Shown here in pieces: positions 15,250 to 58,361 of a stretch of 64,000 nt of DNA. The DNA is taken from assembly GCA_964625065.1 (NCBI GenBank), contig CAZUZL010000004.1:11040-75039 (forward strand). The letters run 5' to 3'. The stretch's first letter is position 1; each line of letters starts with the position of its first letter. A program made the translations under genes and the position numbers. The notes under the pieces were generated by a model. The model worked only from the letters and a program-made list of their open reading frames with translations. It was not told the origin of the DNA and made no database searches. The DNA is from an uncultured Candidatus Saccharibacteria bacterium (lineage in GTDB: Bacteria > Patescibacteriota > Minisyncoccia > Phycocordibacterales > UBA9973).

Positions 15250-15963
15250 TTAGAACATCTTGATTTTATCCTCATTGTTTACTTTTGCTATAAACGCCGG
15301 ATCAAATTCAGACTTATCTGCATCAAAATACGGGAACTTTCTAGAAAGATCGTTCAGCATGTCACTGCATGGTCCTAAATAAAACTTACTGGGTGATTTT
15401 TTAAAATCGACCTCTTCATTGGTGATTATAAAATTTGACAAGGCTAAGCATTTGTCTAAGTCAGGAAACTCAGAAGCCTCTAATTCCTTAAAATAGTCAA
15501 AACTATAACCTTTCAGCGGTTCTTCCATTTGAGATCGTTTATAACGAACTTCCTTGCTTGCATCAATGCCAACAACTATACCACCTATTGACCGAAAAAA
15601 TTCAATCTCAGTAGCATTTTTTAAAGACCGTACAAACACCACACTTCGATTAACGATCTTATCTAATTTAAGACCCTTAACAAAGTAGGCATTACCATAA
15701 AGGTGTCGCATAGTATTCATGTATTCACGAATTTCTGCTTTGTTTTCCGAGTTTATAACATGCCCAGAAGACATCTTAGAATCAAAGGCAGCAAAAGCCG
15801 ACAATGAATAAACTTCGGTACAACTTAACCTACTAGAAATATATTCTACATAGGCTCTTTTACCAGCATAAATTGGTCCAGTAACAGCTAGAAGGATCGG
15901 TTTTTCAATGAGTATTGTCATAAAAATAGCGTTTAGGTTTTTTATATAATAACACCTAGGCAT
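15250..15963 (-). CDS. P-loop NTPase-like hypothetical protein, possibly a nucleoside/nucleotide kinase-like fold
   Basis: LAVTGPIYAGKRA resembles a Walker A motif. No further assignment is possible. Confidence 0.45.
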   Translation of the reverse strand: MPRCYYIKNLNAIFMTILIEKPILLAVTGPIYAGKRAYVEYISSRLSCTEVYSLSAFAAFDSKMSSGHVINSENKAEIREYMNTMRHLYGNAYFVKGLKLDKIVNRSVVFVRSLKNATEIEFFRSIGGIVVGIDASKEVRYKRSQMEEPLKGYSFDYFKELEASEFPDLDKCLALSNFIITNEEVDFKKSPSKFYLGPCSDMLNDLSRKFPYFDADKSEFDPAFIAKVNNEDKIKMF

Positions 15964-18210: not shown

Positions 18211-18923
18211 AAGAATTTGCATATGCAACAGTCGGTGGTGTTGGACCCACATTGCTTTGGTTATGGTTTTGGTTACGCCAAGAAGACGAAGGCCACACAG
18301 AACCCCGTGGGCTAATACTACTGTGTTACATCATGGGTGGTTTAATGGTTATGCTTGCTATACCACTACAGAAACTTGCTAGCCATTTTACGGGTATGGT
18401 GGGTTTGTTGCCCATAGTGTTGTGGGCCAGTATAGAGGAACTTTTAAAATACAAAGCTGTTTCAGTACTAGCACTTAAAAGTAAATTCGCCGACCGTGCT
18501 ATCGACTTCCCCATGTATATGATAGCCGGTGCACTGGGTTTTGCAGCATGCGAAAACATTTTGTATCTACTACACCCACTAACCCAGGGCGACATGACGG
18601 TTAGTTTACTAACAACTAACTTACGTTTTCTTGGTTCGTCACTACTACATGCCATGTCTTCGTCGTTGATTGGTATTAGTTTAGGTTTGTCGTACTACCG
18701 TGGTTGGGTAAGTAGAAAAATATATTTATTTTTCGGAATAATTTCTGCAATTGCCTTGCATAGTGCGTTTAATTTTTTTATAATGAATAAGACCGGTGTA
18801 CACACATGGCAAACATTAGCTATGTTGTGGGTTTTCACGGTAATAACCATTCTCATGTTCGAGAAATTAAAACGTATTAAAACGCCCGCATACACGGGCA
18901 TAATTATAAACAACAATGCTTAA
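18180..18923 (+). CDS. PrsW-family intramembrane metalloprotease-like membrane protein
   Basis: Polytopic membrane protein carrying the EELLK (EExxK), HAMSSS and HSAFNF motifs typical of PrsW/CPBP proteases. It overlaps the end of valS by 31 nt. Confidence 0.5.
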   Translation: MRYPLALPGVKEFAYATVGGVGPTLLWLWFWLRQEDEGHTEPRGLILLCYIMGGLMVMLAIPLQKLASHFTGMVGLLPIVLWASIEELLKYKAVSVLALKSKFADRAIDFPMYMIAGALGFAACENILYLLHPLTQGDMTVSLLTTNLRFLGSSLLHAMSSSLIGISLGLSYYRGWVSRKIYLFFGIISAIALHSAFNFFIMNKTGVHTWQTLAMLWVFTVITILMFEKLKRIKTPAYTGIIINNNA

Positions 18924-19416
18924 AAAAAGATCTTTCTTTGAACGACTAACAGGCGGTATCAGACTAGAAGACGAAACTGAAGCCGAAACAACAACACAAC
19001 CTGAAAAATCAGTTGCTCCACAAAAAACCATGGCCATTCACCCGTCGGGCGAATCTACAAACATAGTTGCAGAAGACGAACCCGAAGAAGGCCAGTTAAC
19101 AGTGGACGTATACGAAACCCCTAACGAAATAATCGTTCAGGCATTTGTTGCTGGTGTTAAACCCGAAGATTTGACCATAACCATAACCCGTAACACAGTT
19201 CTAATACGTGGGCGCCGTGAAGAAAACAAAACCATAATGCACGACGACTATATTTCGCGCGAACTGTACTGGGGTGCGTTTTCTAGAACAATTGAACTAC
19301 CTGTAGAAGTAGAACCCGAAGCCGCAGATGCAATAGAAAAACACGGGCTACTATCTATAAAGGTACCTAAAATAGATAAAAGTAAAAAGGCTAGTTTGAA
19401 AGTTAAATCACTATAA
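18916..19416 (+). CDS. Hsp20/alpha-crystallin family small heat-shock protein
   Basis: Alpha-crystallin domain LTVDVYETPNEIIVQAFVAGVKPEDLTITITRNTVLIRG...GAFSRTIELP...LLSIKVPK. A terminator follows at 19425-19448. Confidence 0.85.
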   Translation: MLKKRSFFERLTGGIRLEDETEAETTTQPEKSVAPQKTMAIHPSGESTNIVAEDEPEEGQLTVDVYETPNEIIVQAFVAGVKPEDLTITITRNTVLIRGRREENKTIMHDDYISRELYWGAFSRTIELPVEVEPEAADAIEKHGLLSIKVPKIDKSKKASLKVKSL

Positions 19417-20034: not shown

Positions 20035-20343
20035 TTATTGTCCGTTTACTCCGGTTTGACTTAGAAAGTCTTCAATGTGTTTTGCACCAGAAAGTGTTTT
20101 CATAAAATCTGGAGAAACACTAGTTTCAGAACCATCGCCACCTGTATAGGTGTTTAACAACGTGCCCATAAACGGCTTAATAAAGTAAAATGAACCTAAC
20201 GCCAGCAATATCAAGAAAATCCAATATGCAAACTTAGAATATAAGTTAACTTGGTTTAGTCGATATATCTTTTTTAATAATTGATGGTTTTCAGTTTGCT
20301 GTTTTGAAAGCGCTTCAATCATTGCCTTAGTTTCAACGTCCAT
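20035..20343 (-). CDS. Hypothetical small membrane protein
   Basis: Start set at the ATG giving MDVETKAMIEAL. The ORF-track start at 20364 is a GTG that falls inside the GTGTCGGGGTATACT promoter motif. One transmembrane segment is predicted. Confidence 0.5.
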   Translation of the reverse strand: MDVETKAMIEALSKQQTENHQLLKKIYRLNQVNLYSKFAYWIFLILLALGSFYFIKPFMGTLLNTYTGGDGSETSVSPDFMKTLSGAKHIEDFLSQTGVNGQ

Positions 20344-20349
20344 TGCAGT

Positions 20350-20385
20350 AGTATACCCCGACACTTATTTTTTTGCAAATTGACA
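20350..20385 (-). promoter_or_regulatory. Sigma70-like promoter, TTGCAA-N17-TATACT, with GGGG directly upstream of the -10; leaderless, with the ATG 6 nt after the -10
   Basis: Minus strand reads ttgcaaaaaaataagtgtcggggtatactactgcaATG. The same architecture occurs at leuS (31540-31589). Confidence 0.5.
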
Positions 20386-20513
20386 AAATAGGTGTGGGGG
20401 TATAGCAAATATACGTAAAATTTCAACTTTTATGGCACCGGGCAGATATTGCATATTTAGGCATAAAAAAACCCGATATATTTACATATATCGGGCCAAA
20501 AGAATTTTTGATA

Positions 20514-24196: not shown

Positions 24197-24583
24197 TTAG
24201 GAATGAATGTTAATATCTTTGATTTCACCACCTTCTTGAGTAGTTATTTTAATATTACTATTTTCATCAATAATAATCGAAAACCAACTAGTGCCTTGAG
24301 ACCTTACTGCATCAAAATACAGGCAAGAATTTGATATTGTAATTGAAACCTTAAAATAATCGACAGTCACTTCTTTCGATGAAAAAATGCCAGTTTTTAC
24401 CCGAAGAAAATCCATATCGTATTCAGCTACAGTGGACACAATAATTGCTGAAACGTCTTTCACAGATTCATCCATGCCTTTAGGATGAAGCTTAAAACTA
24501 ATTATCTTACCGACAAGCTTTGAAAAAGAGTCGGATTCGTTTAAATTAAGTAAGCTTTTTGCTTTTATTTCTAATGCGCTCAT
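24197..24583 (-). CDS. Hypothetical protein
   Basis: A 128-aa ORF with no recognised motif. Confidence 0.4.
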   Translation of the reverse strand: MSALEIKAKSLLNLNESDSFSKLVGKIISFKLHPKGMDESVKDVSAIIVSTVAEYDMDFLRVKTGIFSSKEVTVDYFKVSITISNSCLYFDAVRSQGTSWFSIIIDENSNIKITTQEGGEIKDINIHS

Positions 24584-26354: not shown

Positions 26355-28679
26355 TTATTGTTTAGTATTTGTTTTTTTATTTTTATCTGTTTGTTGTATG
26401 TTTGGCACTGGTAAATTTAGTTGGTCTATTTTTTCTTTTAGGTTTTTGTAGTCTACATTTTCTGGACTAAGTCGTAGTAGTGCGTCTACCAGTGTTGTGG
26501 CTTCTTCTATAGAACCGTTTTTAACATCTGCCTGCGCCAACATATAACCTATACTTTGGTTTGGTGTTAACGAAAATGCCATTCTAAAGTCGTTTACTGA
26601 ATCAACATTGTTACCCATTTGGCTTAGTAGTATACCCCTAGAAACGTATAGGTCGGCCATGTTCGGGTTGTATTTTATGGCAACACTTAGGTTGTTTACG
26701 GCACCGGCAAAGTCTTTTGCATTGTATGCAATCTGCGCCTTAAGTTGGTACGCGGCTACATAGTCAGGTTTTAGTTCCAAAGATTTGTTTATAAAACTAG
26801 TAGCATTTTCTATGTTTTTATTAGCTAGTTCTAAACGTGCCTTTGCCAACGGTACAGCTGGCGACTGTGGTACATAGTACCCGACTTTGTCGTATGCAGC
26901 AACACCGTTTGTATATGGGTCGCCGGCTATCTGTAGTGTGGTTGCTATTTCAAAAAACTGCCCAAGGTTTAACCAGTTACTGTAGTTAGCTGGGTCTATA
27001 GTAGTAGCCACAACACTAGAATTTTGTATTGCAGTAACCAGGTTCTGAGCTTCAGTTTCTGCGTTTTTTGTATTGCCACTTAACAATGTGTTCAGTTGGT
27101 TTGTATAAATTGTAGACAAAGTTCTATAGTACATGTCGTTTTTATTTTCAAGCTTTATAGCTTTTTGTATATATACTAACGCAGATTCAGCTGTGTTTGT
27201 TTGTGAAGCTTTTGTAAAATATATTACAGAACTAATTTTTGTAATAGAAAAATACAAACCAACAATAGAACCCACCATAACACATACCAGTACTAGTATG
27301 GTAAAAAAACTATTTCTAGGGTCTTTCAGGTATGTGTTTTTATAAACAGATATTATGTTTTTAGATGCTAACAGACCTACAAACATAGCTGTTGTTATAA
27401 ACGTCAGAACAAATACAGTTACATTTGTGCCTATACAGAAATGTACAATCCATAGAAAAGCTGAAACAAAAAATGTAGTTACCAGTGGTGCGTCAAATTT
27501 TTCAGTTTTAAACTGTGCCAACAATACACGCACACCTGTAACAAAATATATAAACAAGAAAAACAACCATGCCACAAAACCTACAGCACCTGTTGTTACC
27601 AAAGATGTAAACACAGACCCGTAACCGTTTGTAAAACCTGTGTCCCAGTACTGGGTGTTGTTTATTTCTAGTGGTTTAAACTGCATCCATGTTTCTGCAA
27701 AACGCCCTGGCCCGTAGCCTACTAGTGTACGTAATGTGTTTGAACTAGTTTGTTTTTTATATATACCTAATGTTGCTTTTACAGAAGGCTGTGCATAGTT
27801 ACTTACAAAGCCAACTTTAGAACTTATAAATGTGCCAACAAAACTGTTGCCTAATGTAAACAAAATACAAACAACAATAATTATAAATGTTGTAATGGGT
27901 ATTGTTTTGCTTATTGGAGTGTTAGTTTGGTTTGGTTTGTGTAGCAGTGCAACACTATAAACGAAAAACAACAGTGCCACCACACCAGTTATAACCCATA
28001 TCGAAACTATGTTTACTAGGGCCATTACCAACAAACCCATGGCAATAACAACCCAGTAAAAAACTTTATTTAAAACACCTTTTGTAGAAAACACACTGTA
28101 GCACATAGCCAACAGTACAACTGTAGCTGAAACTACACCGTAGTCTGTCCACGAACCAACCATGGTGTTGTTTATTATGCCTTTTATAAAAGACATATTG
28201 TATACCGAGTTTTTTGTAAGGTATGTAAATAAAACCAAAACAAAAGAAGCAATAAAAGATATAAATATAGTTCTGATTATACGTTTATGGTTACGTTCTG
28301 TGCCGGTATATTGTATACCTAAGAAATAAACTAAAACTAAAGACAAAACCGAGGCTACACTGCCTACTTCAAAAGACAAACCAAACATTGATTTATAAAA
28401 AGCGGGCGAAAAAAACGCCGACAAAGTTGTGGTTAACAAAACCAACATTAGACCCAGGTTTATGCGGGTTTTTGGGTATGAAACTTCGCCGTCTACAAAA
28501 CGTGCAACGGCATATGCCAATATAGATATAGTTAACCCTATAACCAACAGTGCACCTTTTATAGAACCCAAGTTAATTGAAAAATACGGTATAAATAAAA
28601 ACGGTAGCAGTATTATGGTTGCAAAAAAAGCAAACCTTGAAATTGCGTTCATGCGCAATAGCAGTTTAGGTGGATTCAT
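26355..28679 (-). CDS. O-antigen-ligase-like polytopic membrane protein with a C-terminal TPR-repeat domain
   Basis: About 12 TM helices at the N terminus, then TPR-like repeats (AYQLKAQIAYNAKDFAGAVNNLSVAIKYNPNMADLYVSRGILLSQMGN). Confidence 0.5.
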   Translation of the reverse strand: MNPPKLLLRMNAISRFAFFATIILLPFLFIPYFSINLGSIKGALLVIGLTISILAYAVARFVDGEVSYPKTRINLGLMLVLLTTTLSAFFSPAFYKSMFGLSFEVGSVASVLSLVLVYFLGIQYTGTERNHKRIIRTIFISFIASFVLVLFTYLTKNSVYNMSFIKGIINNTMVGSWTDYGVVSATVVLLAMCYSVFSTKGVLNKVFYWVVIAMGLLVMALVNIVSIWVITGVVALLFFVYSVALLHKPNQTNTPISKTIPITTFIIIVVCILFTLGNSFVGTFISSKVGFVSNYAQPSVKATLGIYKKQTSSNTLRTLVGYGPGRFAETWMQFKPLEINNTQYWDTGFTNGYGSVFTSLVTTGAVGFVAWLFFLFIYFVTGVRVLLAQFKTEKFDAPLVTTFFVSAFLWIVHFCIGTNVTVFVLTFITTAMFVGLLASKNIISVYKNTYLKDPRNSFFTILVLVCVMVGSIVGLYFSITKISSVIYFTKASQTNTAESALVYIQKAIKLENKNDMYYRTLSTIYTNQLNTLLSGNTKNAETEAQNLVTAIQNSSVVATTIDPANYSNWLNLGQFFEIATTLQIAGDPYTNGVAAYDKVGYYVPQSPAVPLAKARLELANKNIENATSFINKSLELKPDYVAAYQLKAQIAYNAKDFAGAVNNLSVAIKYNPNMADLYVSRGILLSQMGNNVDSVNDFRMAFSLTPNQSIGYMLAQADVKNGSIEEATTLVDALLRLSPENVDYKNLKEKIDQLNLPVPNIQQTDKNKKTNTKQ

Positions 28680-28700: not shown

Positions 28701-31529
28701 CTATACTGCTGCAATGTTTATAAGTCTGCCAGGGACGTATATTATTTTCTTTATTTCTTTACCTTCTAGCCACTGTAAAACTTTTTCGTTTTTCATTGCA
28801 ATAGACTCTACATCTGACTGTATTGCGTCAGTTGGTATTGTTATTTCAGCGCGAACTTTGCCGTTAACTTGCACACCGATGGTTACAGTGCTTGAAGTTA
28901 TTTTCTTAGGGTTGTATTTAGGCCATGGGCTTTGATGAATACTGTTTTTTGAAGACTCAAAAACCGCCCATAATTCGTCTGTAACATGCGGTGCAAATGG
29001 GGCCAGTAACTGTAAGAATGTTTTAAACATATCTACAGGCACAGTGGGTGCATTTTCAAATTCATTTAGACATATCATTAAACTAGATATTGCAGTATTG
29101 AATGCAAAGTTTTCTATATCTTCGGTAACTTTCTTAATGGTTTTATGTAAAGTTATGACAGTAGTTTCAGAAATAGCGGAAGCGGAGAACGATTTTGAAT
29201 GGTCTGGCTGAGCGATTTTTGCCGAAGGTGAAAAATGTCGCGAAGAGATCCCCGCCCGACCGAGTCCTTCGGGCAGGCGAGGACCTGAAAAATCGTTCTC
29301 CGGTGAAGCTATTATTTTTTGACCTAATCTCCAAACACGTTCAATAAACCGGCGTGAACCTATTATACTTTCAGTGTTCCATGGCTGGCTTGCAGTAAAC
29401 GGCCCCATAAACATTTCATATACACGTAATGTGTCTGCACCAAATGTTTTTATTATATCGTCTGGGTTTACTACATTACCCCAACGTTTAGACATTTTAC
29501 GGCCATCGGCAGCTAATATTAGACCCTGGTTGTACATTTTTTTAAACGGTTCTTCGGTATTTACTGAACCGATATCTTTCAAAAACTTATGCCAGAAACG
29601 TGAATACAACAAATGCCCGGTAACGTGTTCTGCACCGCCTACATACACGTCTACATTTTTCCAATATGCTATTTCTTTGTCACCTACTAACGACTTTGCA
29701 TTTTTCGGGTCCATATAACGTAGGAAATACCAAGAAGATCCCGCCCAACCCGGCATAGTGTTTGTTTCATAACCTTTATCTGTCCAAGACTTAACACCTG
29801 CCAACGGCCCCTCAGCCTTACCTGTAGGTTCGTACGACTTTACGTTTGGTAGTTCTAGTGGAAGTTTTTTAACTTCGTGTATTATTCCACCTTTGTCGCG
29901 GTATAGTGGAATAGGTTCGCCCCAGTAACGCTGACGTGCAAATATTGCATCACGCATTTTGTAGTTTGTTATAGTTCTGCCACCTACTGATTTTGTAATT
30001 TCTATTTTAGCTTTTTCTGAAGGCATTCCTGTAAATGAACCAGAATTTATTGCGTAACCCAAACCTGTATAACATTCGTACTGTAAATTTACTTCTACAT
30101 CTGACCAACTTCTTGAACCCATTGGTACAGGCTTAAGAGTTTTTTCGTCATTAAGGTTTACTGCAATAACTTTTTTAATATCTAATTTATATTTCTTTGC
30201 AAATTCAAAGTCGCGTTCGTCGTGCGCCGGTACAGACATAACAGCACCAGTACCATAACCAGCTAAAACATAGTCGGCCACCCATACAGGAACAGCTTCG
30301 CCGTTGGCTGGGTTTATAGCTTTTATACCTTTTAGTTCTACACCAGATTTTTCGTTGTTTTCTGTGCGTTCTTCATTTGTTTTGTTTTTAACTTGGCGTA
30401 TGTATGTTTCTACAACACTATAGTTTTGTATTTGTGTTTTGTTTTTTTCTATAAAGTCATGTTCTGGCGCTAATACAACAGCTGATACACCAAACAAAGT
30501 GTCTGCCCGTGTTGTAAACACAGTTATTTTGTCTGTACTGCCTTCAACTAAAAAGTCTATTTCTGCGCCTTCGCTTTTACCTATCCAGTTGTTTTGTATT
30601 GTTTTAATATGTTCGGGGAAATCGATGGTTTCTAGTCCACTGATCAAACGTTCAGCATATGCAGTTATGCGCATAGACCATTGGCGTATTGTCATTTTTT
30701 CTACTGGGTATTCACCACGTTCAGAAACTTGTTTACCATCTTTGTCCACGATCTCATCATTTGCCAGCACGGTACCTAATTCCTGACACCAGTTTACTTC
30801 ACTGTCAGCTTCATAAGCCAGACGGTAGTGCATTAGTATTTCTTGTTTTTTTAATTCAGTAAAACCTTTCCACTGAATAGCAGAAAATGCAAAACGGTAT
30901 GTAGTATATGCATTACCATTTTTTACATAATCTTTATTACCCTTTGTTTCAAATATTTTTACTAATTGGTCTATAGACTGGGCTTTGTTTTTCTTTACAT
31001 CGTAGTACGAATTATAAAGTTGTAAGAATATCCATTGTGTCCATTTGTAGTATTCTGGGTCTGTAGTATTTATTCTACGTGTCCAGTCATAAGACAAACC
31101 TATTGCTGAAAGTTGTTTTTCAAAAGTTTTTACATTTATTTCCACTGCGCGTTTAGGGTGCACCTTATGTGCTATAGCGTACTGTTCCGCAGGTAAACCG
31201 AATGCATCGTAACCCATCGGGTGCAAAACATTGTAACCCTGCATGCGTTTATATTGTGCTAATACGTCAGACCCAATGTAGCCACGTGGGTGACCAACGT
31301 GCAAACCAGCCCCAGACGGGTATGGAAACATATCCAAAATATAGAAAGGCTTTTTTCCGCCAGCTGGCGGATTTTTCTTGGCGTCACTTGCCGACAGGGT
31401 TTTGTAAGTTTGATTTTTGTCCCACAGTTTTTGCCACTTTTTTTCAATAGCAAGGTGGTTGTAGTCCTTAATTTTTGCTGGTTTTTTAGCACCAGTGGAC
31501 GTGGTTTTTTTAGCCATATTTGTTTTCAT
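28701..31529 (-). CDS. leuS: Leucine--tRNA ligase carrying an in-frame insertion of a palindromic repeat. Start set at the ATG giving MKTNMAKK; the ATG at 31517 is also possible.
   Basis: HIGH-type motif PYPSGAGLHVGHPRGY, KMSKRWGN and CP1/editing-domain similarity. A 119-bp element flanked by terminal inverted repeats at 29182-29300 encodes an extra segment, ENDFSGPRLPEGLGRAGISSRHFSPSAKIAQPDHSKS, between the conserved VWRL and LHKTIKKVT. Confidence 0.9.
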   Translation of the reverse strand: MKTNMAKKTTSTGAKKPAKIKDYNHLAIEKKWQKLWDKNQTYKTLSASDAKKNPPAGGKKPFYILDMFPYPSGAGLHVGHPRGYIGSDVLAQYKRMQGYNVLHPMGYDAFGLPAEQYAIAHKVHPKRAVEINVKTFEKQLSAIGLSYDWTRRINTTDPEYYKWTQWIFLQLYNSYYDVKKNKAQSIDQLVKIFETKGNKDYVKNGNAYTTYRFAFSAIQWKGFTELKKQEILMHYRLAYEADSEVNWCQELGTVLANDEIVDKDGKQVSERGEYPVEKMTIRQWSMRITAYAERLISGLETIDFPEHIKTIQNNWIGKSEGAEIDFLVEGSTDKITVFTTRADTLFGVSAVVLAPEHDFIEKNKTQIQNYSVVETYIRQVKNKTNEERTENNEKSGVELKGIKAINPANGEAVPVWVADYVLAGYGTGAVMSVPAHDERDFEFAKKYKLDIKKVIAVNLNDEKTLKPVPMGSRSWSDVEVNLQYECYTGLGYAINSGSFTGMPSEKAKIEITKSVGGRTITNYKMRDAIFARQRYWGEPIPLYRDKGGIIHEVKKLPLELPNVKSYEPTGKAEGPLAGVKSWTDKGYETNTMPGWAGSSWYFLRYMDPKNAKSLVGDKEIAYWKNVDVYVGGAEHVTGHLLYSRFWHKFLKDIGSVNTEEPFKKMYNQGLILAADGRKMSKRWGNVVNPDDIIKTFGADTLRVYEMFMGPFTASQPWNTESIIGSRRFIERVWRLGQKIIASPENDFSGPRLPEGLGRAGISSRHFSPSAKIAQPDHSKSFSASAISETTVITLHKTIKKVTEDIENFAFNTAISSLMICLNEFENAPTVPVDMFKTFLQLLAPFAPHVTDELWAVFESSKNSIHQSPWPKYNPKKITSSTVTIGVQVNGKVRAEITIPTDAIQSDVESIAMKNEKVLQWLEGKEIKKIIYVPGRLINIAAV
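29182..29300. repeat. Palindromic dispersed repeat, copy D: a MITE-like element with 14-bp terminal inverted repeats, inserted in-frame in leuS
   Basis: Terminal inverted repeats cggagaacgatttt and aaaatcgttctccg. The internal ttgaatggtctggctgagcgattt matches the cores of copies A and B. A GC-rich internal hairpin is present. Confidence 0.6.
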
Positions 31530-31539
31530 GAATATATGC

Positions 31540-31589
31540 AGTATACCCCCACACCTAGTTTTTTGCAAAAAACTAGGTGTGGGGGTATA
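31540..31589 (-). promoter_or_regulatory. leuS promoter TTGCAA-N17-TATACT embedded in a perfect 48-bp palindrome; the ATG lies 10 nt after the -10
   Basis: tatacccccacacctagttttttgcaaaaaactaggtgtgggggtata is perfectly self-complementary. A related, partly palindromic copy lies at 20350-20405. Confidence 0.55.
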
Positions 31590-31652: not shown

Positions 31653-32222
31653 TTATTTCGAAAACTTTTTAACAACTAGCCATATTAATAGGCCTAATGC
31701 TAATGCTAGTATTACTACCTTAGCCAAGTTGTCTGCCACAGACCAGTAACGTACAGACGCAATTATTAACGACAGCACCCCGCCCCATGTAAACGCCACA
31801 GCTAGTAGACTGATGCCAATAAACACCCCTAATACAAGCGAAATTATACCTAATGTTAATAACGTTACAAAAACCTTTTTCTCGTAACTTTTTAGGGCTT
31901 TTTGGTAGTTTATGTCGTTTGTATAATTTTCATTACAAAAACCTTCTACTTTAGGTTGTGTTTCCTTAACTGGTTGTACTGTGCCTGGATATGAAGATTC
32001 GTTCCATTGGCCACCAACTGCTATACAACCGTCTTTGGTTGTAGGCGGTGCTATTACTTGTGTGTTTTTGTAGTAGTCGTTGTATACAGGTTCTTTAAAA
32101 ACTAATGATACTGAATAATTAAAAAACATGTTCATTACAATAACTATTGCAACAACAATAGATGCGCGAACAAGTTTAGTAGAAAGTGTACTTGTTATTT
32201 GATTTATTTGATGTGGTTCCAT
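31653..32222 (-). CDS. Hypothetical membrane protein
   Basis: Start set at the ATG giving MEPHQ; the ORF-track start at 32240 is a TTG. A TATAAT box lies 6 nt before the ATG. N-terminal and C-terminal TM helices. Confidence 0.55.
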   Translation of the reverse strand: MEPHQINQITSTLSTKLVRASIVVAIVIVMNMFFNYSVSLVFKEPVYNDYYKNTQVIAPPTTKDGCIAVGGQWNESSYPGTVQPVKETQPKVEGFCNENYTNDINYQKALKSYEKKVFVTLLTLGIISLVLGVFIGISLLAVAFTWGGVLSLIIASVRYWSVADNLAKVVILALALGLLIWLVVKKFSK

Positions 32223-32261
32223 CTTTCTATTATACCACAAATTCTGACCTGCCCCGTAGTA

Positions 32262-32325
32262 AATTTCTGAAAAGGGATACTACCCACTAAACGCACCTAG
32301 TAAAAATTTCACTACGGGGTATAAT
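32262..32325. promoter_or_regulatory. Divergent promoter region with the inverted repeat ccccgtagtaaattt / aaatttcactacgggg, and ACTACGGGGTATAAT 6 nt before the ATG at 32332
   Basis: Both divergent genes have TATAAT 6 nt upstream of their ATG. The inverted-repeat arms are separated by about 35 nt. Confidence 0.5.
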
Positions 32326-32331
32326 AAACAA

Positions 32332-32970
32332 ATGATACAAGACCAACAAAACCGCGTGCGTAGCGTAGAACGTATTGCTATACGCGCAACTACATGGATA
32401 GGTTCGCCCGCGTCGTTAGTTGTACATACTATTTTGTTTGTACTTGCTTTTTTACTTATACTTGTCGGCTTTCCTGTAGACAAAGTTTTACTTGTTTTAA
32501 CTACCATTGTTTCACTCGAAGCTATTTACCTTTCTATATTTATACAAATGTCTGTTAACAGATCTAACCGCAGACTGGTAGCTGTGCGTAAAGACTTGGA
32601 AGAAATCCAGGAAGACGTCGAAGACATTCAGGAAGATGTGGAGGAAATTCAGGAAGGCGTCGAATCTATCGAAAAAGACGTGGATGAAATTCAAAAAGAT
32701 GTGGAAGAAATTCAGGAAGATGTGGAGGGTATTGAGAAGGATGTTGATGAAATTCAGGGCGACATTGAAGGGTTAGAAGAAGATGTAGAGGATATTTCTG
32801 AAGATACAATAGCCACAGCCGTAGCTGAACGTGCCCGCGACCAAGACATGTTAGTACGTGTAGAATCTGCGTTAACAATTCTGATGCAGGAACTACAAGA
32901 CCTAAAAGCAAAACAAATACCGCAGAAACCAGCTACAAAAAAACCAGTTGCAAAAGTGACAAAGAAATAG
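32332..32970 (+). CDS. DUF1003-family membrane protein with a C-terminal acidic heptad-repeat domain
   Basis: Two TM helices plus SLEAIYLSIFIQMSVNRSNRR, matching the DUF1003 core. Ten tandem heptads of the type E-[ED]-I-Q-E-D-V follow. Confidence 0.6.
   Translation: MIQDQQNRVRSVERIAIRATTWIGSPASLVVHTILFVLAFLLILVGFPVDKVLLVLTTIVSLEAIYLSIFIQMSVNRSNRRLVAVRKDLEEIQEDVEDIQEDVEEIQEGVESIEKDVDEIQKDVEEIQEDVEGIEKDVDEIQGDIEGLEEDVEDISEDTIATAVAERARDQDMLVRVESALTILMQELQDLKAKQIPQKPATKKPVAKVTKK
32599..32808. repeat. Tandem 21-bp coding repeats, 10 copies
   Basis: Units gaagaaatccaggaagacgtc, gaagacattcaggaagatgtg, gaggaaattcaggaaggcgtc and so on encode EEIQEDV heptads. Confidence 0.7.
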
Positions 32971-42503: not shown

Positions 42504-42620
42504 TCAAATATTATATCATTCATGCAACAATAAACATAAATATTTATACAATTTACTTTATACACACAATTACTTTTGCACATTAATTGTTATACAAACA
42601 ACATGTAAAGGTACTTGCTC

Positions 42621-42660
42621 CGTAGTGAAACTTGAGACTGTTTCTACTACGGGGTATAAT
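42621..42660 (+). promoter_or_regulatory. Sigma70 promoter TTGAGA-N17-TATAAT with an ACTACGGGGTATAAT core and an upstream inverted repeat
   Basis: ccgtagtgaaacttgagactgtttctactacggggtataat. The inverted-repeat arms are ccgtagtgaaa and tttctactacgg. Confidence 0.5.
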
Positions 42661-42707
42661 ATATATGTAGTTACAAAAAAGTAATTATTTAATAACATAA
42701 AAATTTT

Positions 42708-43244
42708 ATGGCTTATATATATTATAAAGGCTCAGGAATATCAGATTTTATTTTTAAGAATACAAATAGTTCTATTCTCTGGCTCGTCATACGCATCTAT
42801 GTTGGGTGGGCATGGTTAGTTGCAGGTTGGGACAAAATTATAAACCCTGCATGGTTCGGTGCAAATGCCGGTGCAGGTATTACAGGTTTCTTAAACGGTT
42901 CTTTAACTAAAACAGGTGGTGCACACCCAGACGTATCTATGTGGTACGCTTGGTTTATACAACACGCAGTGTTACCATATGCCCACATTTGGTCTTATGT
43001 TATAACCATCGGCGAAGTACTAATTGGTGTGGCATTGATACTTGGTATATTTACTGGTATTGCTGCATTCTTTGGTTCATTTATGAACTTAAACTTTTTG
43101 CTTGCAGGTTCTGTAAGTGTAAACCCAATACTGTTTGTACTTGGTATGGGCGTATGTATGGCATGGCGTGTAGCTGGCTACTATGGTGTAGACCATTATT
43201 TACTACCATATGTGCAGAACAAAAATAACAAAACAACTGGTTAG
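42708..43244 (+). CDS. DoxX-family membrane protein
   Basis: Four-TM topology and W/G-rich helices (RIYVGWAWLVAGWDK, GEVLIGVALILGIFTGIAAFFG) typical of DoxX/DoxD. Confidence 0.55.
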   Translation: MAYIYYKGSGISDFIFKNTNSSILWLVIRIYVGWAWLVAGWDKIINPAWFGANAGAGITGFLNGSLTKTGGAHPDVSMWYAWFIQHAVLPYAHIWSYVITIGEVLIGVALILGIFTGIAAFFGSFMNLNFLLAGSVSVNPILFVLGMGVCMAWRVAGYYGVDHYLLPYVQNKNNKTTG

Positions 43245-50061: not shown

Positions 50062-50940
50062 TTATTTTTCTATTATGCGAAGCTTGGCACTTCGACTCCG
50101 TGGGTTACTGCTAATTTCAGTATCGGTTGGAGTTATTGGTTTTTTAGTAATAATTTTCGCACCCTCTTCTTTTTTTGTATTAAAAAATTGTTTTACTATT
50201 CTGTCTTCTAATGAATGAAACGATATGCATGCTATGCGTCCGCCTGGGGCTAATACATTCCACGCTGCAGTTAAACCTTCGTTTATGTTGTCTAGTTCCT
50301 GGTTTACGGCTATGCGTATTGCTTGGAAGGTTCTAGTTGCGGGGTTTATCTTGCCGTTTCTGTATGAAGCCGGTACCGAGCCACGTATTATGTCTACTAG
50401 TTGCGTAGTGCGTGTTATTGGTTCTATAGCGCGTGCGGCAACGATGGCCTTAGCTATACGACGAGAATAACGTTCTTCGCCGAAACCATAGATGATAGTT
50501 GCTAGTGTTTCTTCGGCCCAGGTGTTTACTACGACCATTGCTGTAACACCGTCTTTGTTATGTTCCATTGTCATTAGTAGTGGTTCGTCTTTTGCAAAAG
50601 AAAACCCACGACCACTGGTGTCTATCTGTGGAGACGACAAACCAAAATCGAATAGTACACGGTTTACTTGATCTATTCCCTTAGTCTTTAATAAAGTTTC
50701 TAAGTTGCGGAATTCACCAAGTAAAAATGTTGCTTTGTAACCTTTGTTTTTAAAAAGAACTTCGGTACGGTCTAGGGCCGCTTGATCGCGGTCGATACCA
50801 ATAACCGATACTGTTGGGTAGCGCCCACACACACTGGCGCTGTGCCCGCCGGAACCCAGTGTTCCGTCGAGGAATGTGTCGCCGGGTTTAATGTCTAACC
50901 CATTGATACTTTCCTCTAATAAAACTGAAATGTGGTCCAT
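50062..50940 (-). CDS. rsmH: 16S rRNA (cytosine1402-N4)-methyltransferase RsmH (MraW)
   Basis: HISVLLEESINGL...DGTLGSGGHS SAM-binding motif. Length is 292 aa. It lies downstream of mraZ. Confidence 0.9.
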   Translation of the reverse strand: MDHISVLLEESINGLDIKPGDTFLDGTLGSGGHSASVCGRYPTVSVIGIDRDQAALDRTEVLFKNKGYKATFLLGEFRNLETLLKTKGIDQVNRVLFDFGLSSPQIDTSGRGFSFAKDEPLLMTMEHNKDGVTAMVVVNTWAEETLATIIYGFGEERYSRRIAKAIVAARAIEPITRTTQLVDIIRGSVPASYRNGKINPATRTFQAIRIAVNQELDNINEGLTAAWNVLAPGGRIACISFHSLEDRIVKQFFNTKKEEGAKIITKKPITPTDTEISSNPRSRSAKLRIIEK

Positions 50941-51374: not shown

Positions 51375-51488
51375 AATATATCGGTGTTATAAGGGTTTAA
51401 AAAGTTTTTATGCCACAAACTTTGTATACCACTTCGTCCCACCTTACCCCATTTTACACCACTTTGTACCACACCGCAAATGGTGTAA

Positions 51489-53704: not shown

Positions 53705-54664
53705 TTAGTTAGGACAGTCTGCGTTATATTCTGGTGCGTATACTATAGTTGCATATGCAGTCAAGTTTTGACTGTCTGTAATTCTGGCTGTAACTGTATA
53801 TTTAGGTACAGAATTTATGTTGTTTTTATAACCTTGTACATTTAGTGGGTCTGAAATATAGTATGTCCCTAACGACGATGTTGTACTGGTATTAAAACTA
53901 CTTACAACTGTCCATTCTATTTTTATTGTACCTATACCACCTGTCCATGCCACAGAAGGTTCGTGTTTTTTAGTACAGTACAATGAACTACCAGGTCCGT
54001 TAACGGGTGTTGTGTGGTCTGTTATGGTTACGTTGTTTGGTCCGTCTGTTTTGTAACAGTAACCCAAGTTTTGTGCAGTACTGTTTGTTGTTGGGTTTAG
54101 TTTACCACAGCGTATCTGAACATCGGTACCAGTTGCGTCCTGTCTGTAGTATGTCATAAGTGACGGACCAAATTCGCCACTATTTGGGCAAACGCGACTG
54201 GCAGGGTTTAATGTTTGTGCTGCACGTATAGTACAGTAGTCGCCCATACCTATGTTTGTATTACCAGTTAGCTGTAGGTTGTATCTTATGTCTGGGTAGT
54301 TTGTTGCAGTTAATGTTGGTTCACCTATATCTAGGAAGCCTTTGAACCACGAATACCCAGATACTACACGAAAGTCGCCAGTGTTTGCAGATGTGCCTAC
54401 GTTTACAGAACCACCAGATTCTACATTGGTTCTAGATATTAGGTAGCCTTTATAGTTTGTACTATTTAAAGTATAACCTATACTACCGAACTGACTTGTT
54501 TTAACTTGGTTGTCGTCGCCACGGTTTACTATAACAGATGGGTTACAACTGGTATCACCAGCTGTACATGTCGGGTCGCTCCATGCGGCACTAACCAACA
54601 TAGCAGTACCGGCTACACATATAGCCAGCACCAACGGCGCAATAACTTGTTTAAAGTTTTTCAT
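53705..54664 (-). CDS. Secreted Cys-containing protein, member 1 of the MKNFKQ paralogous family
   Basis: Signal peptide MKNFKQVIAPLVLAICVAGTAMLVSAAW. Conserved blocks shared with the genes at 56302-57231 and 57250-57828 are WxxP[ST]C...CN, SWFKGFLDIGEP, YNLQLTGNTNIGMGDYCTIR and CPNSGEF. An ACTACGGGGTATAAT promoter lies 6 nt before the ATG. Confidence 0.6.
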   Translation of the reverse strand: MKNFKQVIAPLVLAICVAGTAMLVSAAWSDPTCTAGDTSCNPSVIVNRGDDNQVKTSQFGSIGYTLNSTNYKGYLISRTNVESGGSVNVGTSANTGDFRVVSGYSWFKGFLDIGEPTLTATNYPDIRYNLQLTGNTNIGMGDYCTIRAAQTLNPASRVCPNSGEFGPSLMTYYRQDATGTDVQIRCGKLNPTTNSTAQNLGYCYKTDGPNNVTITDHTTPVNGPGSSLYCTKKHEPSVAWTGGIGTIKIEWTVVSSFNTSTTSSLGTYYISDPLNVQGYKNNINSVPKYTVTARITDSQNLTAYATIVYAPEYNADCPN

Positions 54665-54745
54665 ATGTACATTATACCCCGTAGTTAAGCTTTTACCAAT
54701 AGTAATATGTGAAAAATTATATTTTTGGAATCTTAATACGGATCA

Positions 54746-58263: not shown

Positions 58264-58361
58264 GTGTGTATTATACCTTGAAGTAAAATTTTAAACAACA
58301 CGGCCCAGGTAAATATAGCAAATAAAAATGCACAACGTGTGTGCTTTTTACTATTGTTATA

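What the first reader, a model, noticed from the sequence alone, without database searches (positions are those of the whole stretch)
32262..32332. Recurrent promoter module ACTACGGGGTATAAT placed 6 nt before the ATG, implying leaderless transcripts
The motif occurs before the DUF1003 gene (ATG 32332), the MKNFKQ member 1 (ATG 54664, minus strand) and the DoxX gene (42647-42660). The variant GTGTSGGGGTATACT occurs before leuS and the gene at 20343. In most cases the -10 hexamer ends 6-10 nt before the ATG. The same spacing holds for valS (TATAAT, 6 nt), the Hsp20 gene (TTATAA, 6 nt), tsaD (TATAGT, 7 nt), the PemK-like gene, ldh, and the HNH and membrane genes. A leader that short leaves no room for a Shine-Dalgarno sequence. 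Leaderless initiation therefore looks like the default in this organism. The GGGG immediately 5' of the -10, and the inverted-repeat partner upstream (ccccgtagtaaattt / aaatttcactacgggg at 32262-32320, and ccgtagtgaaa / tttctactacgg at 42620-42652), may additionally mark a regulon or operator.
Basis: seen in the sequence. Interest (0 to 1): 0.6.

Follow-up and report, generated by a model that had tools for sequence, protein, structure and literature searches.

The report
Palindromic insert rebuilding leaderless-gene promoters
The repeated 15-base motif is the joint between a tiny palindromic insertion element and the promoter box it landed in; this ultra-small (CPR) bacterium places promoters about 6 bases before start codons and shows no ribosome-binding sites, so many mRNAs probably have no leader.

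Summary
ACTACGGGGTATAAT occurs three times exactly, and a sister form GTGTSGGGGTATACT occurs twice.

The spacing is also real. A TATAAT-like box ends exactly 6 nt before an ATG in 15 of 60 ORFs, and Shine-Dalgarno motifs are not enriched. Related Nomurabacteria-like Patescibacteria show the same pattern. Leaderless is the commonest layout (about 40% of unit-first genes), not universal: DoxX has a conserved 47-nt leader.

The operator/regulon reading is not supported. ACTACGGGG is the right terminal repeat of a roughly 38-90 bp palindromic mini-element.
- A metagenome scan found at least 65 homologous copies. Their left arm was not imposed by the search, and their inner stems covary.
- Empty versus filled orthologous sites show clean insertions inside the -10 hexamer with TATA(N) duplicated. 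This holds at window gene 20343 against five loci from four relatives, at leuS, and at pilM.
- The downstream copy restores TATAAT/TATACT at the original distance from the ATG.
- The element's loop adds a -35-like TTGnnA 16-17 nt upstream.

The closest analogue is the Neisseria Correia element. No transcription start sites were mapped, and no transposase was identified.

The parts
32311..32325 (+). Family A copy 1: right terminal repeat ACTACGGGG (32311-32319) plus the -10 TATAAT (32320-32325). The ATG of the DUF1003/YoxC-like gene is at 32332, a gap of 6 nt.
   Evidence: Covariance-model hit at 32237-32334, 45.2 bits, E=1.5e-7. The 15-mer and gap are conserved in L085, and the -10 and gap in L083 and L086.
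32252..32275 (+). Degenerate left arm of copy 1 (CCCCGTAGTAAATTT...). It pairs with 32296-32319. There is no TATAA on its outer side. The arm is present only in the window, not in L083, L085 or L086.
   Evidence: RNA fold -24.4 kcal/mol, z = -4.0.
32332..32970 (+). DUF1003/DUF948-like coiled-coil membrane protein, 212 aa, predicted leaderless.
32223..32234 (-). Divergent ordinary promoter TGGTATAAT (-10 at 32229-32234) plus a 6-nt gap to ATG 32222 of the 189-aa gene 31653-32222.
   Evidence: an independent gene call uses the same start. Conserved in L083, L085 and L086.
42620..42660 (+). Family A copy 2: left arm CCGTAGTGAAAC (42620-42631), -35-like TTGAGA (42632-42637), right arm GTTTCTACTACGGGG (42640-42654), -10 TATAAT (42655-42660).
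   Evidence: fold -22.2 kcal/mol, z = -4.9. Covariance-model hit E=0.0065-0.04.
42661..43244 (+). DoxX transcript: a 47-nt SD-less leader with a conserved hairpin (42667-42674 pairs with 42681-42688), then the DoxX ORF at 42708-43244. This copy is not leaderless.
54671..54699 (-). Family A copy 3, right half only: -35-like TTGGTA (54694-54699), a 17-nt spacer ending in ACTACGGGG (54677-54685), -10 TATAAT (54671-54676). The ATG is at 54664, a gap of 6 nt. The left arm has decayed.
   Evidence: 18.5 bits, weak. It resembles the loop and right arm of L114.
53705..54664 (-). MKNFKQ secreted or membrane protein 1 (319 aa, no Pfam match), predicted leaderless.
31540..31589 (-). Family B copy at leuS: left TATA (31586-31589), 40-nt perfect palindrome CCCCC...GGGGG (31546-31585) with TTGCAA at its centre (31563-31568), a 17-nt spacer, and the regenerated -10 TATACT (31540-31545). 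ATG at 31529, with the conserved ATG at 31517.
   Evidence: fold -39.4 kcal/mol, z = -8.8. Covariance-model E=5e-4. Empty site in L086, filled in L083, half-decayed in L085.
20350..20404 (-). Family B copy at gene 20343: left TATA (20401-20404), element 20356-20400 with TTGCAA at 20373-20378, -10 TATACT (20350-20355), a 6-nt gap, ATG at 20343.
   Evidence: Five orthologous loci (L198, L199, L200, L201, L202; L198 and L199 are identical over this region) have the empty site TTGCTATA(A/C)T plus 6 nt plus ATGGACGTTGAA. The window carries a clean 49-nt insertion.
20035..20343 (-). 102-aa protein of unknown function, predicted leaderless in the window and in all the relatives examined.
58270..58284 (-). 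ACTTCAAGGTATAAT, a diverged right-arm-like promoter 6 nt before ATG 58263 of gene 57862-58263.
   Evidence: 3 mismatches. (15.5 bits, not significant). It resembles the L086 DUF1003 promoter.

Best explanation
**What it is.** ACTACGGGGTATAAT is a junction. ACTACGGGG is the outer end of the right arm of a small non-coding palindromic repeat element. Short forms are about 38 bp; long forms are about 70-90 bp and carry an extra nested hairpin. TATAAT is the sigma-70-type -10 box of the gene downstream.

**How it arose.** The element family occurs in Nomurabacteria-like Patescibacteria. A sister family with arms CCCCCACACCTAG/CTAGGTGTGGGGG precedes leuS and gene 20343. These elements insert inside -10 hexamers and duplicate TATA(N).
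- The upstream copy keeps the old extended -10 'TGn' but now reads TATAAC. By general knowledge of -10 boxes it should be inactive; this was not tested.
- The downstream copy again reads TATAAT or TATACT, at the original 6-7 nt from the ATG.
- The element's loop places a -35-like TTGnnA 16-17 nt upstream of the restored -10. An extended -10 promoter is thereby converted into a -35/-10 promoter.

**State of the window copies.** The two family B copies are intact. The three family A copies are old relics that mainly retain the right half, which now serves as the promoter.

**Consequence for translation.** Transcription should start about 7 nt after the -10, at or within a few nt of the AUG. The mRNAs would therefore be leaderless. 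That is the commonest gene-start architecture in this lineage, which also shows no Shine-Dalgarno signal.

**Shown versus inferred.**
- Shown: the repeats, the hairpin covariation, the insertion polymorphism with duplication, the -10-to-ATG spacing and its conservation, and the lack of SD enrichment.
- Inferred: promoter activity, the transcription start sites, leaderless translation, and any terminator or stabiliser role of the hairpin in upstream transcripts.
- Unknown: the mobilising enzyme.
For: **1. Leaderless layout**
- The gap-6 peak is seen in the window.
- Pooled over nine Paceibacteria loci, 51 of 210 ORFs are at gap 6 against about 3.8 per other gap. Bacillus controls have 0.
- SD motifs are not enriched.
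- TATAAT plus 6-8 nt plus ATG is conserved at the DUF1003, pilM and gene 20343 orthologues while flanking bases vary.
- Where the element's end is displaced from the -10, the ATG tracks the -10 and not the hairpin. Examples are window 32260(-) and L111.

**2. Element family**
- The scan for the 15-mer followed by N6-7 and ATG gave 107 stretches and 80 loci.
- 59 of 71 unique hits carry an extended right arm that the search did not impose.
- 49 carry the left arm GGTATAACCCYGTAGTAGA.
- The structure is 95% paired with covarying inner pairs, and long forms show many compensatory inner stems.
- A covariance model built from these copies hits window copy 1 (E=1.5e-7), the leuS palindrome (5e-4), copy 2 (0.0065-0.04) and the gene 20343 copy (0.04-0.27).

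**3. Insertion**
- Gene 20343: the window has a clean 49-nt insert, and five loci from four relatives are empty.
- leuS: L086 is empty; the window and L083 are filled.
- pilM: L194-L197 are empty; L114, L152 and L159 are filled, with near-identical flanks.
- Filled and empty pilM sites interleave in PilM similarity.
- The left flank reads TGnTATA in 16 of 44 copies.
- The model found no element in 78 kb of L194-L197.

**4. Promoter conversion**
- 16 of 25 ordinary leaderless promoters are TGnTATAAT with a poor -35.
- Element-linked promoters lack TGn but have TTGnnA at 16-17 nt; 26 of 34 match TTGACA at 4 of 6 positions or better.
Against: - No transcription start sites or expression data are available, so both promoter use and leaderless status are inferred.
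- The metagenome sample was selected for the exact 15-mer plus ATG. Right-arm conservation, the orientation relative to the gene, and the 6-7 nt gap in that sample are therefore partly imposed.
- TATA is self-complementary, so within a single copy the 'duplication' could be read as part of the inverted repeat. Only the empty sites resolve this.
- The three family A copies in the window show no duplication and have weak or absent left arms. Their element origin rests on homology to the family; for copy 3 that homology is weak (18.5 bits).
- No transposase or autonomous partner was identified.
- Long-form elements often have a poor -35.
- A few variants lack a -10 at their end, for example L107 and L138.
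- The right arm is perfectly kept in the window and in L085 (80% identical protein), but not in L083 (93% identical protein). This pattern is not simply explained.
Confidence: 0.75

Rival explanations
1. Operator or regulon. A transcription factor or alternative sigma factor recognises ACTACGGGG and its inverted partner and co-regulates the DUF1003, DoxX and MKNFK genes, and pilM, pilB, hpf and mgtC in relatives.
For: - The 9-mer occupies the spacer and extended -10 position, where repressors commonly bind.
- The same gene families recur downstream of the module in different organisms: pilM five times, and pilB, MgtC and small secreted proteins three to four times each.
- The right arm survives where the left arm has decayed.
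Against: - Arm separation varies from about 4 to more than 60 nt, and the inner stems covary rather than being conserved in sequence.
- Orthologous promoters in close relatives lack the element altogether and still have TATAAT plus 6 nt plus ATG.
- There are clean indels with a duplicated TATA(N).
- The downstream genes are functionally heterogeneous: helicase-, ParB-, Ddl- and RuvA-like N-termini (named from the sequences by my own reading, not by a domain search) plus transketolase-like and histidyl-tRNA-synthetase-like families, among others.
- The 9-mer sits at 0 nt from one -10 and at 17 nt from the divergent one.
- Recurrence before the same genes can also arise from repeated targeting of the same TATAAT box.
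Confidence: 0.12
2. The hairpin works as RNA. It is transcribed as the 3' end of the upstream gene's message and acts as a terminator, insulator or stabiliser (REP-like). It might instead be an RNase III processing site that frees the downstream cistron. This could coexist with the promoter role as terminator-promoter punctuation.
For: - The upstream ORF is co-directional in 57 of 67 cases, and its stop usually lies in or next to the left TATAA.
- The folds are very stable, with z between -4 and -8.8.
- The majority U.G and G.U pairs make the gene-sense strand more stable than the antisense strand in 44 of 48 copies.
- Correia elements are RNase III substrates when transcribed (PMC2649163).
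Against: - No U-tract follows the stem.
- The strand asymmetry is a property of the element, and the search selected one orientation, so no bias relative to genes is shown. One inverted copy exists, L119(-).
- Two of the window copies lie in divergent intergenic regions, where there is no upstream co-directional transcript to terminate.
- The empty alleles function without any hairpin.
Confidence: 0.3
3. The hairpin is a 5'-UTR cis-regulatory RNA and TATAAT is only the base of its stem. On this reading these genes are transcribed from further upstream and are not leaderless.
For: - TATA pairs with the left TATA in the fold.
- A few variants end without a good -10 (L107, L138).
- DoxX shows that leadered, structured 5' UTRs do exist in this organism.
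Against: - Empty orthologous sites keep TATAAT, often as TGnTATAAT, at 6-8 nt from the ATG with no hairpin at all.
- The same spacing is seen genome-wide at promoters without hairpins.
- The ATG follows the -10 when the hairpin end is displaced from it.
- No Rfam family matches the module.
Confidence: 0.07
4. Chance: AT-rich background produces TATAAT-like boxes near ATGs, and the 15-mer recurrence is coincidence.
For: - The window is 33-41% G+C.
- TAnnnT alone shows no peak at any gap.
Against: - Exact TATAAT followed by ATG at gap 6 occurs 9 times against 1.6 expected, with 0 of 200 simulations reaching 9.
- There is a sharp single-position peak in nine loci and none in Bacillus.
- Three exact 15-mers occur in the window, and at least 65 homologous modules occur elsewhere.
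Confidence: 0.01

Closest known systems
Correia repeat-enclosed elements (CREE/NEMIS) of Neisseria
   Same: - Both are small non-coding palindromic elements with terminal inverted repeats and a target duplication, and both vary in presence between strains.
- The 'Black promoter' consists of a -35 and a partial -10 inside the element, completed by the flanking sequence at some insertion sites (PMC2649163). That is the same logic as here.
- When transcribed, the inverted repeats form hairpins bound by RNase III.
   Different: - The elements here are much shorter (about 38 bp against 70-157 bp), have unrelated sequence, and occur in a different phylum.
- They sit inside an existing -10 hexamer and restore it, rather than landing at generic sites.
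- The restored promoter is 6-7 nt from the ATG, so the products would be leaderless.
- No IHF site was looked for.
- Copy number looks low: about 5 in the 64-kb window, and 0 in 78 kb of other Nomurabacteria sequence.
GeneMarkS-2 'group C' genomes: Actinobacteria and Deinococcus-Thermus with frequent leaderless transcription
   Same: A Pribnow box is localised 6-8 nt from the starts of first genes in operons, and about 25-50% of operons are predicted leaderless (PMC6028130). The window has 18 of 46 unit-first genes in this arrangement, with a peak at 6 nt.
   Different: - In group C the remaining genes use SD sites. Here no SD enrichment is seen for leadered or operon-internal genes.
- The lineage is Patescibacteria/CPR. 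The held literature returned no report of leaderless predominance in this group.
REP/BIME elements and their RAYT transposases; IS200/IS605-type palindrome-associated elements
   Same: - These are short intergenic imperfect palindromes with conserved mismatches and a strand-specific hairpin.
- They lie between co-directional genes.
- They can stabilise or attenuate upstream transcripts (from my own knowledge).
- A GTAG tetranucleotide is conspicuous in both (from recollection, not tested).
   Different: - REPs are high-copy and are not known to split and rebuild -10 boxes or to duplicate a target.
- No RAYT or TnpA gene was sought or found here.
Hybrid promoters created by insertion sequences with outward-facing -35 boxes (IS1, IS2, IS10 and others; my own knowledge)
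   Same: The mobile DNA supplies a -35 at the right distance from a resident -10.
   Different: Here the element is about 40 bp with no transposase gene, and the resident -10 is itself the target and is duplicated.

Membership tests
Leaderless-rich bacterial genome (GeneMarkS-2 group C type) | A -10 (Pribnow) box localised about 6-8 nt upstream of the start codons of first genes in operons. | tested here: met
   15 of 60 ORFs are at a gap of exactly 6, and 18 of 46 unit-first genes are at 6-11 nt. Pooled, 51 of 210 ORFs are at gap 6.
Leaderless-rich bacterial genome (GeneMarkS-2 group C type) | The other genes (operon-internal or leadered) use Shine-Dalgarno sites. | tested here: not met
   GGAG/GAGG at -16..-5 occurs in 1 of 60 window ORFs (control region 3 of 60) and in 9 of 210 pooled ORFs (control 14 of 210). 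Bacillus loci give 15 of 32 against 2 of 32.
Leaderless-rich bacterial genome (GeneMarkS-2 group C type) | Mapped transcription start sites coincide with start codons. | not testable with these tools
   No transcriptome data are available for this organism.
MITE-like / Correia-like palindromic insertion element | Terminal inverted repeats and no coding capacity. | tested here: met
   The arms are CCCYGTAGTAGAA / TTTCACTACGGGG (family A) and CCCCCACACCTAG / CTAGGTGTGGGGG (family B), in elements of about 38-90 bp.
MITE-like / Correia-like palindromic insertion element | Target-site duplication flanking the element, with a single copy at empty sites. | tested here: met
   TATA(N) flanks filled sites and is single at empty orthologous sites, at gene 20343, leuS and pilM. 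Whether the duplication is 4 or 5 bp cannot be decided.
MITE-like / Correia-like palindromic insertion element | Multiple copies at unrelated loci, and presence/absence variation between related genomes. | tested here: met
   There are five copies in the window before unrelated genes and at least 65 in metagenomes before about 45 gene families. The genome of L083/L201 is filled at leuS but empty at the gene 20343 orthologue. The genome of L086/L200 is empty at both.
MITE-like / Correia-like palindromic insertion element | An autonomous partner element or transposase with matching ends. | not tested
   No search for a transposase was made. The transposition mechanism is unknown.
MITE-like / Correia-like palindromic insertion element | An element-borne -35 plus a junction -10 forms a working promoter (Black-promoter type). 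| tested here: inconclusive
   At the sequence level, TTGnnA lies 16-17 nt from the restored -10 in 26 of 34 short forms, but the -35 is poor in most long forms. Promoter activity was not testable.
Dimeric transcription-factor operator | Two half-sites at a fixed short spacing, conserved in sequence at orthologous promoters. | tested here: not met
   The spacing varies from about 4 to more than 60 nt. The element is absent at orthologous promoters in relatives.
Intrinsic (Rho-independent) terminator | A G+C-rich stem followed by a U-tract. | tested here: not met
   The stems are stable, but they are followed by AU plus 6 nt plus AUG, with no U run.
Any curated RNA family (Rfam 15) | A covariance-model match. 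| tested here: not met
   Only tRNAs matched in the window at gathering threshold. Nothing overlapped the module in 14 module-bearing loci at E<=1.

The most novel reading that the evidence does not exclude
The elements may be more than relics. They could form a lineage-specific punctuation system suited to a bacterium without Shine-Dalgarno initiation. On this reading the hairpin ends or stabilises the upstream message, while its loop and right arm rebuild a -35/-10 promoter exactly 6 nt before the next ATG, so that each gene is expressed as its own leaderless mRNA. Insertion would be aimed at -10 hexamers because the (unknown, possibly HUH/Y1-type) machinery recognises the melted, single-stranded -10 of open promoter complexes. 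Repeated hits at the same promoter (pilM) and the strand-specific wobble pairs fit this idea but do not prove it.
Probability: 0.2. Interest if true: 0.9.

Novelty: new variant of a known kind. Interest (0 to 1): 0.7.

Why it matters
**Gene expression in CPR bacteria.** The result gives a sequence-level picture for a Nomurabacteria-like CPR lineage that is barely studied experimentally. Extended -10 promoters abut start codons, there is no Shine-Dalgarno signal, and so there is probably heavy reliance on leaderless initiation. This matters for gene-start annotation of CPR genomes and for building expression tools for them.

**A new element family.** The element family does not appear in the literature I could search. 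It lands inside -10 boxes yet preserves, and probably strengthens, the promoter. This is a compact natural case of mobile DNA rewiring promoters without breaking them. It also offers a ready set of natural filled and empty allele pairs for testing promoter architecture in these organisms.

**A caution for motif discovery.** An exactly repeated 'regulatory motif' next to a -10 box can be a transposon scar rather than an operator.

Tried and rejected
- **Chance.** Rejected by the shuffles and simulations.
- **Segmental duplication of promoters.** Rejected because the flanks of the three copies are unrelated.
- **Known RNA family.** None was found.
- **Operator with a fixed palindrome.** Rejected on the variable arm spacing, the covariation and the empty sites.
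- **MraZ as binder of GTGTGGGGG.** mraZ and GTGG repeats are in the window. However, MraZ boxes are direct repeats with about 10-bp spacing (my own knowledge), not inverted arms. I did not pursue this.
- **Integron attC site.** Considered because of the variable-length palindrome. The R''/R' core sequences (recalled from memory) do not match by eye, and the neighbouring genes are housekeeping genes.
- **Tn3-type ends.** Tn3 ends, as I recall them, run 5'-GGGG...CCCC-3'; here the polarity is 5'-CCCC...GGGG-3'.
- **LeuS scan of species genomes.** It gave relatives of only 58-60% identity, and the covariance model found no element in them.
- **Exact look-up of the window's DUF1003 protein.** It found only two short Logan contigs, from SRR13208889 and SRR13208906, so no extra genome sequence was gained.
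- **Literature.** There were no relevant co-occurrences of 'leaderless' with Patescibacteria, CPR or Saccharibacteria, none of MITE with CPR, and none for the motif strings. The TM7x start-site paper (PMID 35975994) and the GeneMarkS-2 supplements are not held.
- **16S anti-SD test.** It could not be done, because no rRNA gene is in the window or in the fetched loci.
Full report
**1. The observation**

The 15-mer ACTACGGGGTATAAT is present exactly three times, at 32311-32325(+), 42646-42660(+) and 54671-54685(-). The sequences flanking the three copies are unrelated.

The variant GTGTSGGGGTATACT precedes leuS and the gene with ATG 20343.

The inverted partners are real:
- 32252-32275 with 32296-32319: 24-nt arms, 75% complementary.
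- leuS 31542-31589: a perfect 48-nt palindrome.
- Gene 20343: 20-nt arms, 90% complementary.

The short 42620-42631 / 42640-42654 pair before DoxX was not listed by the repeat finder. It can be read directly.

**2. The spacing**

The counts below do not depend on any gene calls:
- ATG follows TATAAT at a gap of exactly 6 nt in 9 of 102 cases. The expectation is 1.6, and the maximum in 200 third-order Markov simulations was 5.
- Among 60 non-overlapping ORFs of at least 80 aa, 15 have a TAnnnT box matching TATAAT at 5 of 6 positions or better exactly 6 nt before an ATG. Other gaps have 0-3 ORFs each.

By a strict criterion, 22 of 63 ORFs and 18 of 46 genes with at least 40 nt of upstream spacer (or a divergent neighbour) have the box at 6-11 nt.

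GGAG/GAGG at -16..-5 occurs in 1 of 60 ORFs, against 3 of 60 in a control region.

Most of these promoters are of the extended -10 type, TGnTATAAT (16 of 25), and have a poor -35.

Leaderless is therefore the commonest single architecture, not the only one. Several genes have a good -10 some 20-50 nt upstream, and their leaders are A/C-rich and lack SD.
- The ATG 4 nt after its -10 is followed directly by TAG.
- The real ORF starts 47 nt downstream of the -10.
- Its leader, with a GTAGTTAC/GTAATTAY hairpin, is conserved in two relatives.

The Hsp20 example also fails.

**3. The organism and its lineage**

The gene content is typical of a CPR bacterium.
- The nearest LeuS sequences in species genomes are a Candidatus Nomurabacteria MAG (58% identity) and a Patescibacteria MAG (60%).
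- Homologues of the DUF1003-like protein and of PilM carry the names Nomurabacteria, Paceibacterota or Minisyncoccia.

The spacing signature is shared across the lineage. Pooled over the window and eight related loci (L003, L083, L085, L086, L194-L197), 51 of 210 ORFs have the box at gap 6, against about 3.8 per gap at gaps 15-40. SD-like motifs occur in 9 of 210 ORFs against 14 of 210 in the control region. Two Bacillus loci give 0 ORFs at gap 6, and SD in 15 of 32 against 2 of 32.

The arrangement is also conserved at individual orthologues:
- The DUF1003 gene keeps TATAAT plus 6-7 nt plus ATG in four genomes.
- pilM keeps TATAAT plus 6-8 nt plus ATG in four further genomes, even where the box overlaps the stop codon of the upstream gene.
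- Gene 20343 keeps TGCTATA(A/C)T plus 6 nt plus ATG in five loci from four relatives.

This matches the 'group C' pattern described for Actinobacteria and Deinococcus-Thermus (PMC6028130), with one difference: no SD signal is seen on the remaining genes. I found no report of this pattern for Patescibacteria in the held literature.

**4. What the 15-mer is**

I scanned metagenome contigs for ACTACGGGGTATAAT followed by N6-7 and ATG. The scan gave 107 stretches and 80 loci with G+C from 29% to 57%. Many come from groundwater contigs whose names indicate 0.1-µm filter fractions.

The hits are homologous well beyond the searched bases:
- 59 of 71 unique hits carry the extended right arm AARYYY(Y)ACTACGGGG. 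About five hits look like chance.
- 49 have an upstream partner GGTATAACCCYGTAGTAGAAYTTT.

Two forms exist:
- In the short form (34 copies) the arms enclose a small loop.
- In the long form (15 copies) the arms are 30-50 nt further apart. The inner stem is extended by pairs that differ between copies yet stay complementary, for example TTTTGGCGA/TCGCCAAAA, TTTCGGTCA/TGACCGAAA and CTTTCCAG/CTGGAAAG. A small G+C-rich hairpin is nested inside.

On an alignment of 39 copies, the 20-pair structure is 95% paired, against 37-55% when the 3' partner is slid. The inner pairs covary: UA/CG at 25:11, and AU/UA/GC. No Rfam family matches.

A covariance model built from these copies gave these hits:

| Target | E-value |
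|---|---|
| Window copy 1 | 1.5e-7 |
| leuS palindrome | 5e-4 |
| Window copy 2 | 0.0065-0.04 |
| Gene 20343 copy | 0.04-0.27 |
| Window copy 3 | 0.15-1 (weak) |

The motif before leuS and gene 20343 (family B) is therefore the same architecture with different stem letters.

**5. It is an insertion**

Three independent sets of orthologous sites show the element present or absent with exact boundaries.

(a) Gene 20343.
- Five orthologous loci read ...GTTGAAATTTTACGTATATTTGCTATA(A/C)T, then 6 nt, then ATGGACGTTGAA. L200 is more diverged upstream, and L198 and L199 are identical over this region.
- The window reads ...TTTGCTATAC[CCCCACACC...GTGTCGGGGTATAC]T, then 6 nt, then ATGGACGTTGAA.
- That is a clean 49-nt insertion.

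(b) leuS.
- L086 reads TTTTTGTTATACTGCGTATATTCATG.
- The window and L083 carry the palindrome between two TATA(C) copies.
- L085 keeps only the right half.

(c) pilM.
- Four homologues chosen without regard to the motif (L194-L197) are empty.
- L114, L152 and L159 carry GTATAA[38 nt]TATAAT. L114's flanks are nearly identical to those of empty L195.

Further points:
- Filled and empty pilM sites interleave in PilM similarity. L114 is closest to empty L197, and L152 to empty L194. Several gains or losses are therefore needed.
- One genome (L083/L201) is filled at leuS and empty at the gene 20343 orthologue. Another (L086/L200) is empty at both. The window is filled at both.
- The left flank keeps the old extended -10 signature: TGnTATA in 16 of 44 copies.
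- In 57 of 67 cases the upstream ORF is co-directional and ends in or next to the left TATAA. This is expected if the original -10 overlapped or abutted the preceding stop codon, as it does in empty L197.
- No element is found in 78 kb of L194-L197, so the element is sporadic rather than essential.

**6. Consequence for the promoter**

Insertion splits TGnTATAAT. The upstream copy becomes TGnTATAAC, with the last T lost. The downstream copy is again TATAAT, at the original distance from the ATG, but it is now preceded by GGGG instead of TGn.

The element's loop supplies TTGnnA 16-17 nt upstream. It matches TTGACA at 4 of 6 positions or better in 26 of 34 short forms. The hexamers are TTGCAA in both family B copies of the window, TTGAGA in copy 2 and TTGGTA in copy 3. 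An extended -10 promoter is thus replaced by a -35/-10 promoter.

The three family A copies in the window are old. Copy 1 has a degenerate left arm with no flanking TATAA. Copy 3 keeps only the loop and right arm. At the DUF1003 site, the relatives show different stages of decay. Preferential survival of the right half fits its use as the working promoter. That last step is inference.

**7. What remains open**

- No start sites were mapped, so promoter use and leaderless translation are inferred from spacing and conservation.
- The metagenome sample was selected by the 15-mer plus ATG. Within that sample, conservation of the right arm, the gap and the orientation relative to the gene is therefore imposed. 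An inverted copy, L119(-), and variants without a terminal -10 (L107, L138) do exist.
- The hairpin carries majority U.G and G.U pairs, which make one strand fold better than the other in 44 of 48 copies. This suggests function as a single strand, either as RNA at the 3' end of the upstream message or as DNA during transposition. I cannot tell which.
- The hairpin lacks a U-tract, so it is not a canonical terminator.
- The mobilising enzyme is unknown.

**8. Comparison with known systems**

The closest known system is the Correia element of Neisseria. It is a small palindromic element with a target duplication. Its 'Black promoter' has a -35 and a partial -10 inside the element, and the -10 is completed by the insertion site. 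Its transcribed hairpin is an RNase III substrate (PMC2649163).

The elements here differ in several ways:
- They are far shorter and unrelated in sequence.
- They occur in CPR bacteria.
- They target and restore an existing -10 hexamer.
- They serve genes whose start codon lies 6-7 nt from that hexamer.

**Verdict**

- The leaderless interpretation is supported as the predominant but not universal architecture.
- The operator/regulon interpretation is replaced by a palindromic insertion element fused to the -10 box.

Noticed in passing
window 42661-42707 (hairpin 42667-42674 with 42681-42688); L083 about 13194-13246; L085 about 15526-15576: The DoxX mRNA has a conserved 47-nt leader without SD. 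It contains a hairpin GUAGUUAC-loop-GUAAUUAY that is kept in three genomes, with a G.U to G.C change in one of them. A second predicted stem covers the AUG. This may be a small cis-regulatory RNA; no Rfam match was found.
   Followed up: partly
window 42665-42670: A minimal start-stop ORF (ATG TAG) begins 4 nt after the -10 of the DoxX promoter. It is not conserved in L083 or L085.
   Followed up: partly
window 51416-51480 (minus strand), upstream of mraZ 50940-51374: A run of GTGG / GGTGGG / GGTGTGG repeats at roughly 10-15 nt intervals lies upstream of mraZ. It resembles the direct-repeat MraZ boxes described in other bacteria (my own knowledge).
   Followed up: no
window 53705-54664, 56302-57231, 57250-57828 (all minus strand): Three tandem paralogues begin with MKNFK plus a signal-peptide-like segment and have no Pfam match. 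Only the first carries the family A motif. The third has an ordinary TGATATACT box plus 6 nt plus ATG.
   Followed up: partly
window 31517-31529 (minus strand): The window, like L086, has four extra codons (ATGAAAACAAAT) ahead of the LeuS start ATGGCTAAAAAA used in L083 and L085. The true LeuS start is therefore ambiguous: the gap from the -10 is 10 nt or 22 nt.
   Followed up: partly
window 58270-58284 (minus strand); L086 about 1322-1336: ACTTCAAGGTATAAT before gene 57862-58263 closely resembles ACTTCAATGTATAAT before the DUF1003 gene of L086. This could be a shared diverged subfamily of the right arm or parallel decay; it is unexplained.
   Followed up: no
window 26629-26638 (minus strand), inside the TPR-protein ORF 26355-28679: GGGGTATACT followed by an ATG 10 nt later lies inside a long ORF. 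It is probably chance, or possibly an internal promoter.
   Followed up: no
Leadered and operon-internal genes of the window, for example 2955-3497, 3673-4305, 4470-5093, 18916-19416, 24197-24583: The sequences just upstream of the start codons that lack a nearby -10 are A/C-rich and G-poor (...aaacaATG, ...caaacaaATG). There is no SD, which suggests SD-independent initiation on leadered mRNAs as well.
   Followed up: partly
L107 7240-7356(-), L138 9224-9285(+), L152 5613-5672(+), L119 about 261(-): These are further element variants found by the covariance model or by the left arm. One has compensating CCCAG/CTGGG ends and no terminal -10. One is very short. One is a family B copy before an orthologue of genes that carry family A copies elsewhere. 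One is in inverted orientation.
   Followed up: partly
L003 about 9920-9960, upstream of leuS: In the Nomurabacteria MAG, the same intergenic position holds a different 13-bp-stem hairpin (CCAACATCCCACG...CGTGGGATGTTGG) with no U-tract. Hairpins without U-tracts may be the usual gene-end signal in this group.
   Followed up: no
window 8144-8941 (minus strand): The pyruvate kinase ORF is only 265 aa, and the best-scoring of its two Pfam stretches covers only the C-terminal half of the barrel domain. It may be a truncated or split gene.
   Followed up: no
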